From positions 30,496,001 through 30,560,000 of the forward strand of contig CP068257.2 in assembly GCA_009914755.4 (NCBI GenBank): a stretch of DNA of 64,000 bases. The letters run 5' to 3'. Source of the DNA: the human T2T-CHM13v2.0 reference genome, Homo sapiens. Under the pieces are notes generated by a model. It was not told where the DNA came from, ran no database searches, and was given only the letters and a program-made list of their open reading frames with translations. This document shows, piece after piece, positions 26,850 through 34,292 of the stretch; positions within the stretch are counted from its first letter, which is position 1; each line of letters begins with the position of its first letter. A program made the position numbers and the translations under genes.

Positions 26850-27581
26850 AAGAGTCAAACTCTGTAAAATATTTGAAGAGATTTATTCTGAGCCAAATAT
26901 GAGTGACCATGGCCTGCGACACAGCCCTCAGGAGGTCCTGAGAACATGTGTCCGAGGTGGTTGGGGTACAGCCTGGTTTTATGTATTTTAGGGAGGCATA
27001 TTTTAGGGAGCAATCAAATACATTTAAGAAATACATTGGTTTGGTTTAGAAAGGCGGACAACTCAAAGCAGGGGCTTCCAGGCTATAGGGAAATTTAAAC
27101 GTTTTCTGGTTGACAATTGGTTGAGGTTATCTGAACACCTGGGATTGATAGAAAGAATGTTCACGTTAAAGATAAAGGATTGTGGAGACCAAGTTTTATT
27201 GTGCAGATGAAGTTCTTACCAGACTTTAGAGACAGCAGGTGGTAAATTGTTTTATATCAGACTTAAAAGGGCACCAGGCTCTTAGTTGATTATCTCCTGG
27301 ATTTGGGAAGGAAGGAAGGAAGGAAAACCAAGGGGAAAAGGGATTCTCTACAGAATGTGGTTTTTTCCCACAAGAGACTTTGCAGGGCAATTTCAAGGTA
27401 TGGCAAGGAAATATATTTTGGGGTAAAACATTTTGATTTTCTTCCTTGTTATGCCAGAGTCAGATTGGAAAGTCACGAGATACAGGATTAAATAAAATCC
27501 ATTTGATAAAAATTTCTGGTTTTTAGGACCTCTTAGAAAGGAATTTGGGTAAGGTAAAAAATCAGAGTTTAGTCTTCAGTC
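26850..27581 (+). repeat. About 730-bp repeat copy A (candidate 5' LTR, or one arm of a segmental duplication)
   Basis: aagagtcaaactctgtaaaatatttgaagagatttattctgagccaaatatgagtgaccatggcctgcgacacagccctcaggaggtcctgagaacatgtgtccgaggtggttggggtacagcctggttttatgtattttagggaggcat...ggttgaggttatctgaacacc...caagttttattgtgcag...ggtggtaaattgttttatatcagacttaaaagggcaccaggctcttagttgattatctcctgg...aataaaatccatttgat...cagagtttagtcttcagt. About 90% identical and collinear with 33211–33954. Contains AATAAA about 90 bp from its 3' end. Confidence 0.5.
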
Positions 27582-30500
27582 CTCCCTCTTGGCCAAAAAG
27601 CATTCACAGAAAGCATATGCAGGCCAACAGCGGCAGATTCCATGGCTCTAGGAGCACTTATTCCTAGAGTTGTCTGATCTGTTCATTTGGCGAGGTCCCA
27701 CGGTGCTAGGAAGGCTTATTCCTAGTGTAGTCTGGTTGATGGTAGTTTTAAATATTAGCGATTTGGATAATGGGGGGAGGACATGGTCTGACCTGATGCA
27801 ATAGCCAATTGTTTACCGAGTGAGATGGAGTCAGGCCTAGGGTTTAGCCTAAAAAAAACCATCCCGGATCAGATCTATTTTCTGAGTTATTATGATCCAG
27901 GTTTTTAATTGTGTCTTTCCTTTTGCTGTACCTGGCATAATATTTGCAAGAAAATGTCTAATGTTAATATAGTAACAAATATAAAGATAGTGAAGGTTTG
28001 GGCGTCCAAGGTTGTAGTTAGAATCAGAGGACACTAACCAACCCAATCAGCCAGAAAACCCCGTATGCATCATCATATTTTTGATCAAACTCACAATGTG
28101 TTTACCTTCCTTATTAAGGGTTATTTGGACCTTGTGATAAATCTTACTTGAGAATTGTGGGACAAACATTAAATTAGAATTTAATAAATGTAATCTCTTT
28201 TCTAGCCAATGTGTTTCCATAGGTATAGCATCCTATGCATATAACATAAATTAAATACCAGAAACACCTGGTCCTCAGTGTTTAAATTGTGATAGACTTG
28301 TTAACAGTAGACAAATCTATTTCCCGCCCACCACCCCCACCAACCGACTTTTGTGTTGCACCATATACTGGTATTTGGAGGGAAAAGGTTTTGTCGCAGG
28401 AGAAGTTATATAATTCTACAGTGTTATTTTTTTCCTTGGCAGGACTATCTATGGCTGAGGACCATAAGAGTTAAAAGACTTATAGCCAATTAATTGTTCT
28501 AGGCCAGATAGGAAGGGTTGTGGACAGCCATTTGTTACTTTTAAAAATTATTAGTTTAAGTAAAAAGGCCAGCAGAAAAACCAAAAGGCAAAGTTGCAAG
28601 ACTGACTTATTTTTAACTTCTATGTGTTGAGCTGCTGTGAGTTTGGTTTTTGTTACAGACTTACAGCAATTAGCTATACAAAACATAAGCACTGCTCTGA
28701 AAAATTAAAAATATATATGGATAGATAGGTTTATTTTTACCACTTATCATTGGGAGTATTATACCCAGGAAGCTTTGTGGTAAGGTATTTTATCCTGTTA
28801 GTAAATGTTTTTCTTTAATTTTACAGCAAAATTTTATGGTTGGGATGGATGCAAAAGTGACAAATAATAGTTTAGAAGACAAGCAAACTTGTTTTACCAG
28901 CTGTTTAGGCATTTTTTTTTTGGACCTCCTTTTTGATTTGGAGGGTTTGATCTTGTCCTAATTTTATCCCTCGAAACTGGCCCTTACAAATTGTACATGC
29001 CCACCTCTTCTGCGATAGTCCCTGGACCTAGAGGGAGGCAGCTTGTATAGCTCTGGCAGCAAAGCATTAGCAGTGAAACAGATCCAGACCCAGTGGATGT
29101 CAAATGAGGGAGATTCCTATCTCTGGTCTTCAGAATACCATGATTTTGGTTTGCTTGGAAGTAAAACAAAAAGAGATAAATAACAGTTATAGTTTGACAG
29201 TTATAACAGTAATTTGTATGTTAGAACAGAAAAAGGAACCTGTTCCATTAGGGCACCAACTGAAAACATGAAGAAAAATTATAATCAGGTACTTTTTAGA
29301 GGATTATTGTAGCCAAGAAATAATGATTTCATCTGTATGTAAAAAGTTAGGGTTGAAATGTAGTATTAAGTGTTACACTTTGCCCTTCAAACAATTTTTT
29401 TGCTGCCTTTTTTATTAAAGAGAATTTTATAGCCAGGCCAATTTGTGTGCAATGCTAGTTTTAGGCTTATTATGCTTGCCTGATGATTTGCATAAAATGC
29501 AGCAAGAAATCGACTGGCCATATAGACTTCTTTTAAAGTTGATTTTGCTGAAACTTTACCTAAAAATAGGCTATACTAGTTTCAGTCTTGGTAAAATAAC
29601 CAGTGTCACCAATTGTTAGGAAAAAAAAAACTATTATTGAACTTATGCAGACAACTATATTGCCATAAAATTACAATCTGAATTTTGGAGGATTCAGAAA
29701 GGGAAATTTGCTTACAAAAACATACTTTACCCAAATAATTTAAAAGAAAAAGATTTCCTTGACCCTTTTTTAACCAGAGCAGCAGCTTTGAAAACGAGAT
29801 GTTTGCTTACCTTGGAAATGTCATTTACAAATCAAACAGCTCAGGAGAGCTATTAGGCATTGTGGAATTTAGCAGCTCCTTACAATTAGTTCTAGAAAAG
29901 AGCCTCTCTGCTTATTAGGTAGCAAGATTTTATGTAAACCATTTTTATTTTATTATGGAACTTTTTGGGAAACATTATTTCCATTAATATAGAGGTAGCT
30001 TTAGTTAATATTCCATAGCAAGCCAGTAAATGCCCCATCAAAATACCTCAGTTGTTGTTATTGAAAAGTACTCACAGTTTTTGCCATCAGTCCGGATAAA
30101 TGCTCCACACAAAAGGCTATGCAGTGGAGGATTTACATGAGCAGATTTACATGTCTTCAGTTTTATGGTACTAGAAAGGGGAAAACATCCCCCAGTGAGT
30201 TAGATATAGTACCCACTTTTATAAGACATTTAGGTGAAAGGGGTTACAACTACCTTACATAAAGCTTGTTTAAATATTTCACATTTTATAATTCTATTAA
30301 CCTATATATTTTTATGTTCTGGTCCCAGGAAGCGTTTTTACCCCCAGACCATTTTACCTTTTCTGGAGAAAAGGATTTGGGTTTCCAGCGGGGGGTTGCA
30401 TCTGTGAGATCTATGAGGGATATCAGATTTGATAAGGCTTCTTAAACAGACCTATGATTCTGTGGGAGGGGCACCATGTAAAAGAGACCCCCTTAACCCC

Positions 30501-30695
30501 CAAATTGACCATGACCCAGGTAATAGACATATCAGGTGGGAGGATATCCCAGTTATAAAGCTAGTCCAACATGGCTTGCATATGAGAGATATTAACTGCT
30601 TCATCTAGGTACTTCACTTGGTATTTTATAGGGAGATTTGGGCAGTCCCCTTCTCAGGGCAAACAGAACTTATATGGCCCACTAGGCTGATTGCA

Positions 30696-30740
30696 TTTTC
30701 TTTCTTTTTCTTTCTTTCTTTCTTTTTTTTTTTTTTTTTG
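30696..30740 (+). repeat. (TTTC)n microsatellite plus T-run upstream of an antisense Alu
   Basis: ttttctttctttttctttctttctttctttttttttttttttttg. Confidence 0.9.
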
Positions 30741-31046
30741 AGATGGAGTAGTCATATTCTGTCGCCCAGGCTGGAGTGCAGTGGCGTGATCTTGGCTCAC
30801 TGCAACCTCTGCCGCCCGGGTTCAAATGATTTTCCTGCCTCAGCCTCCTGAGTAGCTGGGATTACCAGGCACCCGCCACCGTACCCGGCTAATTTTTTTT
30901 TTTTTTTTTTTTTTTTTTTTTGTAGTTTTAGTAGAGACAGGGTTTCATCATCTTGGCCAGGCTGATCTTGAACTCCTGACCTCGTGATCCACCCTCCTCA
31001 GCCTCCCAAAGTGCTGGGATTACAGGCATGAACCACCGGGCCTGGC
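30741..31046 (-). mobile_element. Alu SINE (AluS-like), antisense, with an internal T29 linker
   Basis: gagatggagtagtcatattctgtcgcccaggctggagtgcagtggcgtgatcttggctcactgcaacctctgccgcccgggttcaaatgattttcctgcctcagcctcctgagtagctgggattaccaggcacccgccaccgtacccggctaattttttttt...gtagttttagtagagacagggtttcatcatcttggccaggctgatcttgaactcctgacctcgtgatccaccctcctcagcctcccaaagtgctgggattacaggcatgaaccaccgggcctggc. Confidence 0.95.
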
Positions 31047-33954: not shown

Positions 33955-33965
33955 AAACACCTCTG

Positions 33966-34007
33966 CAACACACACACACACACACATACACACACACACA
34001 CATACAC
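33966..34007 (+). repeat. (AC)n microsatellite
   Basis: caacacacacacacacacacatacacacacacacacatacac. Confidence 0.95.
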
Positions 34008-34099
34008 CATTTCCTCTATTATTGATATCTTACATTAGTACAGTATGTGAACCCCAAATATCTGAGACAGGTCACAGTTAATATAGAAAGTTTAGTTTG

Positions 34100-34292
34100 C
34101 CAAGATTGAGGATGGGCGCTTGTGACACAGACTCAGGAGCTCCTGACAACATGTGTCCACGGTGGTCAGAGCACAGTTTGGTTTTATACATTTTAGGGAG
34201 GCATGAGACATCAATCAACATACATAAGATAAACATTGGTTTGGTCCGGAAAGGTGGGACAACTCTAAGCAGGGAGGGAGCTTCCATTCCAG
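34100..34292 (+). repeat. Truncated third copy of the 26850/33211 repeat (homologous to its first 200 bp)
   Basis: gccaagattgaggatgggcgcttgtgacacagactcaggagctcctgacaacatgtgtccacggtggtcagagcacagtttggttttatacattttagggaggcatgagacatcaatcaacatacataagataaacattggtttggtccggaaaggtgggacaactctaagcagggagggagcttccattccagg. Confidence 0.55.

What the first reader, a model, noticed from the sequence alone, without database searches (positions are those of the whole stretch)
26850..34292. Two 740-bp direct repeats 6.36 kb apart plus an adjacent truncated third copy: candidate degenerate LTR-retroelement/provirus, or a local segmental duplication
26850–27581 and 33211–33954 are collinear and about 90% identical over their whole length. 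Identity begins sharply at aagagtcaaactct and ends at cagag(t/c)ttagtc. The flanking DNA outside these boundaries is unrelated. Both copies carry AATAAA about 90 bp from their 3' ends, in the position of an R-region poly-A signal for a + oriented LTR. The 5.6 kb between them is AT-rich and has no ORF over 80 codons on either strand. It was later hit by two Alus (30741, 32153) and has a 60-bp internal tandem duplication (27640–27760). The arrangement LTR–internal–LTR about 6.4 kb matches a very old provirus or ERVL/MaLR-like element whose coding capacity has decayed. A third copy of only the first about 200 bp sits 140 bp downstream (34100–34292). A dated Alu then inserted 30 bp beyond it (TSD gttgcattctttt). 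I could not match the 740-bp unit to any repeat family I know, and I see no 4–6 bp TSD and no clear PBS or PPT. A non-TE segmental duplication remains a live alternative.
Basis: seen in the sequence. Interest (0 to 1): 0.65.

Follow-up and report, generated by a model that had tools for sequence, protein, structure and literature searches.

The report
Old LTR retroelement with non-coding interior
The two 740-bp repeats are the long terminal repeats of one ancient retrovirus-like insertion in a primate genome, next to an unrelated solo LTR of a sister family; this is an ordinary genomic fossil, and its only odd feature is a 5-kb interior with no trace of viral genes.

Summary
The direct repeat is real. 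c1 (26840-27578) and c2 (33211-33954) are 90.7% identical over ungapped columns, or 86% counting gaps. It is not a local duplication. A scan of metagenome contigs, which contain contaminating human DNA, found about 22 other copies of the same unit at unrelated loci. About 10 are full length and share the same TG...CA ends.

With that correction a 4-bp target-site duplication appears: ATAA|c1...c2|ATAA. c1 alone has none. Two dispersed solo copies also carry perfect 4-bp duplications. An 11-purine tract abuts c1 on the minus strand.

The 5-kb interior has no gag, pol or env remnant in any frame, and controls for that test worked. It has no primer-binding site. That fits a non-autonomous element, not a decayed provirus.

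The "truncated third copy" is a complete 445-bp solo LTR of a related family (34046-34784), split by an AluS.

I could not name the families because no Dfam or Repbase search was available. The finding is ordinary and of low interest.

The parts
26836..26839 (.). Target-site duplication, left copy (ATAA)
   Evidence: These 4 bases sit immediately before the family 5' end, as defined by 20 dispersed copies. They are identical to the 4 bases after c2. The chance of a 4/4 match is about 0.5%.
26840..27578 (-). LTR copy c1 (subfamily B), TGTTGATG...TAGTCTTCA. It is the 3' LTR if the element is minus-oriented.
   Evidence: c1 has no target duplication of its own: ATAA upstream against GTCC downstream, 1/4 matching.
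26882..26887 (-). AATAAA on the minus strand (TTTATT on +), 42 nt from the LTR end. Candidate poly-A signal for a minus-oriented LTR.
   Evidence: Read from the sequence. It is present in almost all family copies and lies in the segment shared with the c3-type family. Its function is inferred.
26975..26993 (-). TATA-like core on the minus strand (CCCTAAAATACATAAAACC here; GTATAAAAC in c3 and subfamily A), about 88 nt upstream of the minus-strand AATAAA
   Evidence: Read from the sequence. It is conserved in c1, c2 and c3. The dispersed loci were selected using this motif, so their conservation of it is not independent evidence.
27311..27473 (.). Block of unusually high c1/c2 identity (96%), containing a 9-bp deletion found only in c1 and c2. 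Candidate LTR-LTR gene-conversion tract.
   Evidence: 6/163 against 61/554 mismatches, p=0.003.
27580..27590 (-). Polypurine-tract-like run AAGAGGGAGGA on the minus strand, 1 nt from the LTR edge
   Evidence: Only 0.6% of positions in the window are preceded within 0-3 nt by a purine run of 11 or more.
27579..33210 (-). Interior: about 5.0 kb of AT-rich non-coding DNA plus two AluS insertions
   Evidence: No Pfam family in six frames at E<=1. No PDB match. No hit among 5.8 billion proteins. No tblastn hit to MLV proteins written from memory. No primer-binding site. No similarity to the rest of the window or to the 28 loci.
27648..27734 (.). Short imperfect tandem repeat (29-nt core, period 58)
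30696..31046 (-). AluS insertion with its tail (poly-T on +)
   Evidence: Non-CpG divergence is 4.8% from an AluSx consensus written from memory.
32152..32453 (-). AluS insertion with its tail
   Evidence: Non-CpG divergence is 8.5%.
33211..33954 (-). LTR copy c2 (subfamily B). It is the 5' LTR if the element is minus-oriented, and it lacks the terminal 10 bp on its inner side.
33955..33958 (.). Target-site duplication, right copy (ATAA)
34046..34784 (-). c3: complete solo LTR of a related ~445-bp family (TGTGAACCCC...TTTCACA), interrupted by an AluS
   Evidence: With the Alu removed, all 446 bp align at 76% to an unlinked copy (L001, L006 and L014 are the same locus). It shares only about 230 bp with c1/c2. 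It is flanked by a short direct repeat, (C)AGTA, whose register is ambiguous.
34324..34600 (-). AluS inserted inside c3, with target duplication GTTGCATTCTTTT at 34311-34323 and 34601-34613

Best explanation
c1 and c2 are the two LTRs of one LTR retroelement. A retroviral-type integrase inserted it in a single event and made a 4-bp target duplication (ATAA).

The element most likely lies on the minus strand. On that reading c2 is the 5' LTR. It later lost the last 10 bp of U5, and presumably the primer-binding site with them. c1 is the 3' LTR and is preceded by a polypurine tract.

The LTR belongs to a dispersed primate family of about 750 bp with at least two subfamilies. The 4-bp duplication suggests a class-I (gammaretrovirus-like, ERV1-type) integrase.

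The ~5-kb interior carried no recognisable gag, pol or env when it inserted. The copy was therefore most likely non-autonomous and was mobilised in trans by proteins of a related autonomous virus.

After insertion, roughly 20-40 My ago, it decayed neutrally. It received two AluS insertions, and one segment of the LTRs may have been homogenised by gene conversion.

c3 is a separate solo LTR of a sister family that landed 91 bp away.

What is shown: the dispersal of the family, the shared ends, the target duplications, the purine tract and the absence of coding remnants. What is inferred: the orientation, mobilisation in trans, the age and the gene conversion. The locus has no evident present function.
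For: 1. Dispersed family. A metagenome scan returned 28 contigs. About 22 carry the unit and about 10 are full length with the same ends. Their flanks are unrelated to one another apart from Alus and one second partial LTR copy in L016; L001, L006 and L014 are one locus.
2. Ends. The family runs from TGTCGATGAAAAGAGTC to TTAGTCCTCA, that is TG...CA.
3. Target duplications. The match is 4/4 for L004 (CATG), for L028 (AAGT), and for the c1-upstream against c2-downstream flanks (ATAA). Chance is 0.5% per test. c1 alone matches 1/4.
4. Polypurine tract. An 11-purine run lies 1 nt from c1 on the minus strand, against a background of 0.6%.
5. Shared private changes. c1 and c2 share a 9-bp deletion and 9 substitutions absent from the four other subfamily-B copies. 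That ranks second among 15 pairs.
6. Repeat boundaries. Homology between c1 and c2 stops at the family ends.
7. Age. K2P is 0.10, and the AluS elements inside show comparable non-CpG divergence of 4.8-8.5%.
8. Non-coding interior. Searches found nothing, and the positive controls worked.
Against: - There is no primer-binding site in either orientation (the tRNA list was written from memory).
- No retroviral domain is present in 5 kb of interior. That is unusual for a class-I element of this age.
- The interior is very AT-rich (26-40% GC), much like the surrounding host DNA.
- None of the 28 flanks of dispersed copies matches the interior, so there is no evidence that the interior is itself a repeated, family-specific sequence.
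- Overall, c1 and c2 are no closer to each other (89.3%) than each is to the unlinked copy L022 (89.6% and 90.0%).
- Only 2 of 9 complete dispersed copies show perfect target duplications. At least one contig (L002) is an assembly chimera, so contig flanks are imperfect evidence.
- A 4-bp match and an 11-nt purine run are each short.
Confidence: 0.62

Rival explanations
1. Two independent solo LTRs of the same subfamily landed 5.6 kb apart in the same orientation. The DNA between them is ordinary host sequence. The ATAA match and the purine run are coincidences.
For: - The interior has no retroviral feature other than the purine run.
- Its GC content resembles the neighbouring host DNA.
- c1 and c2 are no more alike than c1 or c2 and the unlinked L022.
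- One interior AluS (8.5% non-CpG divergence) looks slightly older than half the LTR-LTR distance of about 5%.
- A third related LTR (c3) sits in the same 8 kb, which shows that related LTRs can cluster here.
Against: - c1 has intact family ends but no target duplication of its own (1/4 matching), whereas the outer flanks of the pair match 4/4.
- The purine tract abuts c1 exactly where a 3' LTR needs it.
- c1 and c2 exclusively share a 9-bp deletion.
- No MIR or L2 was found in the interior using consensus sequences written from memory that did hit elsewhere in the window. This is a weak test.
Confidence: 0.22
2. A once-coding provirus whose gag, pol and env have decayed beyond recognition or been deleted.
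For: - The LTR-interior-LTR layout and the total length of about 7.1 kb are provirus-like.
- The 10-bp loss at the inner edge of c2 shows that deletions have occurred.
Against: - The LTRs differ by only about 10%, so each side has changed by about 5%.
- The same masked six-frame Pfam procedure still detects RVT_1 in a far older L1.
- tblastn readily finds L1 ORF2.
- Five kb of interior gives no hit at E<=1. Deletions would have had to remove every coding segment while leaving 5 kb behind.
Confidence: 0.1
3. A local segmental or tandem duplication of a 740-bp piece of host DNA that is not a transposable element.
For: Only that two similar segments lie close together in direct orientation.
Against: - The unit occurs at more than 20 unrelated loci with the same ends.
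- The duplicated span coincides with the transposable-element termini, and no flanking DNA is duplicated.
Confidence: 0.02

Closest known systems
Class-I (gammaretrovirus-like, ERV1) human endogenous retrovirus proviruses and their solo LTRs
   Same: - LTR-interior-LTR layout and TG...CA LTR ends.
- A 4-bp target duplication. That gammaretroviral integrases make 4-bp duplications is textbook knowledge, not something I tested.
- A purine tract before the 3' LTR.
- TATA and AATAAA motifs about 90 nt apart near one end of the LTR.
- Many solo copies.
- A sister LTR family that shares the R-U5 side and differs in U3.
   Different: There is no gag, pol or env remnant and no tRNA primer-binding site. 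The interior is far more AT-rich than typical ERV interiors. The family name could not be determined because no Dfam or Repbase search was available.
MaLR elements (THE1, MST, MLT1): non-autonomous LTR retrotransposons of mammals
   Same: They are LTR-flanked elements whose interior lacks pol and which must be mobilised in trans. They are abundant as solo LTRs.
   Different: By textbook knowledge, MaLRs make 5-bp duplications, have LTRs of about 350-450 bp and have interiors of about 1.5-2 kb. Here the duplication is 4 bp, the LTR is about 745 bp and the interior is about 5 kb.
Chance pairs of solo LTRs
   Same: Two family members lie close together with host DNA between them and no viral genes.
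   Different: Each solo LTR should carry its own duplication. Here only the outer flanks of the pair match.

Membership tests
LTR retrotransposon / endogenous retrovirus (generic) | The terminal repeat is a discrete unit with TG...CA ends and is dispersed in the genome | tested here: met
   About 22 copies at unrelated loci share the same ends.
LTR retrotransposon / endogenous retrovirus (generic) | A short target-site duplication of fixed length flanks the whole element | tested here: met
   ATAA/ATAA flanks c1..c2. CATG and AAGT flank two solo copies. Chance is 0.5% per test. Seven other contig copies lack one, and some contigs are chimeric.
LTR retrotransposon / endogenous retrovirus (generic) | A polypurine tract lies immediately upstream of the 3' LTR | tested here: met
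   AAGAGGGAGGA lies 1 nt from c1 on the minus strand, against a background of 0.6%. This is a single short motif.
LTR retrotransposon / endogenous retrovirus (generic) | A tRNA primer-binding site lies immediately downstream of the 5' LTR | tested here: not met
   The best match to 24 PBS 18-mers written from memory has 8 mismatches next to c2. The adjacent 10 bp of the LTR are deleted, so the site may have been lost.
Autonomous provirus (ERV with gag-pol-env) | Remnants of gag, protease, RT, RNase H, integrase or env in the interior | tested here: not met
   Six-frame Pfam at E<=1 found no families. PDB gave 0 matches. tblastn with MLV proteins found nothing. The controls were positive.
Same-provirus LTR pair | The two LTRs are each other's closest relatives or share private mutations | tested here: inconclusive
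   They exclusively share a 9-bp deletion and 9 substitutions. Overall identity, however, is no higher than to the unlinked L022, and the shared changes cluster in a possible conversion tract.
ERVL / MaLR | A 5-bp target duplication (textbook knowledge) | tested here: not met
   All three perfect duplications are 4 bp and do not extend to 5.
Named Dfam/Repbase LTR family | Nucleotide match to a curated consensus | not testable with these tools
   No repeat library was available. Two full-text searches for 12 k-mers found nothing relevant.
Segmental duplication | The unit is confined to this locus, and its boundaries are unrelated to transposable-element ends | tested here: not met
   The copies are dispersed and the boundaries equal the family ends.

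The most novel reading that the evidence does not exclude
c1..c2 is a member of an uncatalogued non-autonomous class-I-like LTR retroelement. Its ~5-kb interior is entirely non-coding, lacks a conventional tRNA primer-binding site, and is not derived by deletion from any known ERV.
Probability: 0.1. Interest if true: 0.3.

Novelty: already known. Interest (0 to 1): 0.12.

Why it matters
It matters little. This is a neutral fossil of the kind that makes up about 8% of primate genomes, and standard repeat annotation would almost certainly label all three LTRs.

The useful outcome is corrective:
- The repeat is transposable-element-derived, not a segmental duplication.
- It has a target duplication once the ends are placed correctly.
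- The absence of genes reflects a non-coding interior, not great age.

If the interior proved to be a repeated non-coding internal sequence without a primer-binding site, it would be a modest addition to the catalogue of non-autonomous primate LTR elements.

Tried and rejected
- Pfam on direct DNA references failed because of stop codons. I redid it with stops masked as X.
- IMG/VR scans for two LTR motifs found nothing.
- I searched 5.8 billion proteins with 91 stop-free interior segments, hoping to pick up spurious ORFs from paralogous copies. There were no hits, not even to this locus, so the test is uninformative.
- A genome-contig scan for the LTR/purine-tract junction returned only four chance bacterial matches.
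- Three exact-ORF look-ups, intended to fetch orthologous or empty sites, were not on record.
- Two full-text paper searches for LTR k-mers found nothing relevant.
- Rfam at gathering thresholds found nothing in 26000-36500.
- L002 at first looked like a 97% paralogue of c1. It is an assembly chimera: its last 157 bp are 100% identical to c1, joined to the first 50 bp and flank of another copy.
- L018's inner flank seemed to share about 20 nt with c1's, but the score is no better than shuffles.
- Relative dating of the interior Alus against the LTRs was inconclusive.
- I tried to recall the family name (various MER and LTR names) and gave up. Memory alone is not evidence.
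Full report
**Observation**

The window is primate DNA. At least a dozen Alus match consensus sequences that I wrote from memory. One metagenome contig is 100% identical to part of the finding, so the source is very likely human.

A repeat search and local blastn confirm two collinear direct copies. c1 is 26850-27578 and c2 is 33211-33952. Identity is 86.2% over 754 aligned columns counting gaps. Over ungapped columns it is 650/717 = 90.7%, with K2P 0.10.

Homology stops abruptly on both sides. No further copy exists in the 64-kb window.

Identity is uneven. The stretch 27311-27473 has 6 mismatches in 163 columns, against 61 in 554 elsewhere (Fisher p=0.003, window chosen after the fact).

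**The unit is a dispersed repeat family**

I scanned metagenome contigs for a 23-mer shared by the three local copies. This returned 28 contigs, one of them labelled human skin metagenome.

- About 22 carry the c1/c2-type unit at 72-89% identity.
- About 10 are full length and align from the first to the last base of c1/c2.
- Their flanks are unrelated to one another, except for Alus and one second partial LTR copy in L016.

The unit is a transposable-element family.

**True ends and target duplication**

Alignments of the dispersed copies to c1 consistently extend to 26839-26842. A multiple alignment gives the family ends as TGTCGATGAAAAGAGTC...AATCAGAGCTTAGTCCTCA, that is TG...CA. c1 therefore starts at 26840, and c2 lacks the first 10 bp.

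With these ends:
- the four bases before c1 (ATAA, 26836-26839) equal the four bases after c2 (ATAA, 33955-33958);
- c1's own flanks match at only 1 of 4 positions.

Two dispersed full-length copies have perfect 4-bp duplications: L004 (CATG) and L028 (AAGT). Chance is about 0.5% per test.

Seven other contig copies lack a duplication. At least one contig (L002) is a clear assembly chimera. Three near-consensus contigs (L019, L026, L016), 97.5-98% identical to one another, may be collapsed assemblies. I therefore treat contig flanks with caution.

**Orientation**

Three observations point to the minus strand instead.

1. On the minus strand, an 11-purine run (AAGAGGGAGGA, 27580-27590) lies 1 nt from the LTR edge. 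That is the position of a polypurine tract. Only 0.6% of window positions have such a run.
2. The part shared with the related c3-type family is the + strand 5' ~230 bp. By general knowledge of LTR evolution, R-U5 and the core promoter are conserved between sister families while U3 diverges. That places R-U5 at the + strand 5' end, so the LTR is minus-oriented.
3. That shared part carries, on the minus strand, a TATA-like motif (GTATAAAA in c3 and subfamily A; CATAAAA in c1/c2). About 88 nt downstream is AATAAA, 42 nt from the LTR end.

The orientation is an inference from motifs, not a demonstration.

**The interior**

I translated 27579-33210 in six frames with stops masked.
- No Pfam family appears at E<=1.
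- Ninety-one stop-free segments of at least 30 aa give no PDB match at E<=1.
- The same segments give no match among 5.8 billion proteins. That search did not recover even this locus, so it is uninformative.
- Local tblastn with MLV CA, RT, IN and TM sequences written from memory finds nothing.

The controls worked. The same masked-frame procedure finds RVT_1 (E=6e-4) in an old L1 at 43.5-45.5 kb. L1 ORF2 written from memory hits 43.8-47.2 kb strongly.

No tRNA primer-binding site is found next to either LTR (the list was written from memory).

The only later insertions I can recognise are two AluS elements. The interior has no similarity to the rest of the window or to any flank of the 28 dispersed copies. 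MIR and L2 consensus sequences written from memory hit elsewhere in the window but not here.

Each LTR has changed by only about 5%, so a coding interior would still be recognisable. 'Decayed coding capacity' is therefore not a tenable explanation.

**Relationship of c1 and c2**

The family has at least two subfamilies. c1 and c2 group with L022, L013, L011 and L020.

c1-c2 identity (89.3%) is no higher than c1-L022 (89.6%) or c2-L022 (90.0%). This is compatible either with a burst of near-identical insertions or with independent insertions.

c1 and c2 do exclusively share a 9-bp deletion and 9 substitutions, ranking second among 15 pairs. Several of these lie in the high-identity block, which may be a gene-conversion tract. 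Phylogeny therefore does not decide the question. The target duplication and the purine tract do.

**The third copy**

With the AluS removed (34324-34600; target duplication GTTGCATTCTTTT), c3 spans 34046-34784. It reads TGTGAACCCC...TTTCACA.

It aligns over its full ~446 bp at 76% to an unlinked locus (L001, L006 and L014 are the same locus). It is therefore a complete solo LTR of a related, shorter family and not a truncated copy.

It is flanked by a short direct repeat, (C)AGTA, whose register is ambiguous. This is consistent with an independent insertion.

**Conclusion**

The best explanation (confidence about 0.6) is a single, probably minus-oriented LTR retroelement.
- It has a 4-bp target duplication, which by textbook knowledge is the class-I/gammaretrovirus-type length.
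- It inserted roughly 20-40 My ago. This comes from K2P 0.10 and an assumed 1.3-2.5e-9 substitutions per site per year. Gene conversion would make it a minimum age.
- Its interior was non-coding, so it was presumably mobilised in trans.
- It later lost the U5 end and primer-binding site, and gained two AluS insertions.

The main rival (about 0.2) is two independent solo LTRs with host DNA between them. It explains the featureless AT-rich interior. It does not explain the missing duplication around c1, the matching outer flanks or the purine tract. A segmental duplication is rejected.

I could not name the families because no repeat library was available. The locus is almost certainly already annotated by standard repeat masking. 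Interest is low.

Noticed in passing
window 25581-25684: A perfect-looking hairpin with 43-nt arms, 88% complementary. It matches Rfam mir-548 on both strands at 75.6 bits, below the gathering score of 90. This is typical of a MADE1 mariner-derived miniature element and need not be a real miRNA gene.
   Followed up: partly
L002 (metagenome contig OJMC01001994.1), last ~210 bp: An assembly chimera. Its final 157 bp are 100% identical to window 26895-27051, including c1-private variants. The preceding 50 bp of LTR and the flank come from a different copy. This shows that the window's species matches the contaminant (human) and that contig flanks around this repeat are unreliable.
   Followed up: yes
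L019, L026, L016: Three contigs carry subfamily-A LTRs that are 97.5-98% identical to each other and about 1% from the consensus. They have unrelated flanks and no target duplications. Either this is a much younger burst of the family, or these are collapsed or chimeric assemblies of many copies.
   Followed up: partly
window 27311-27473 and 33666-33828: A stretch of c1/c2 with 96% identity (1 mismatch in the central 100 bp), against about 89% elsewhere. It contains a shared private 9-bp deletion. It may be an LTR-LTR gene-conversion tract. It also contains splice-site-like motifs (AAG|GTATGG; a polypyrimidine tract followed by CAG), which I did not examine further.
   Followed up: partly
window 43800-47250 and 51240-51570, + strand: Fragments of an old L1. 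ORF2 matches reach E=1e-46 with a query written from memory, and RVT_1 is found by Pfam. They account for the A-rich skew of 38-52 kb.
   Followed up: partly
window 1542-1699, 6200-6351, 55582-55728; 9188-9249: MIR-like matches, and one L2-like match, to consensus sequences written from memory. I used them only as positive controls.
   Followed up: no
window 33968-34007: An (AC)20 microsatellite lies between the right-hand target duplication of the c1..c2 element and the c3 solo LTR.
   Followed up: no
window 35800-36100: A locally GC-richer, CpG-containing stretch just downstream of an AluS (35181-35469). It might be a promoter or an exon. I did not examine it.
   Followed up: no
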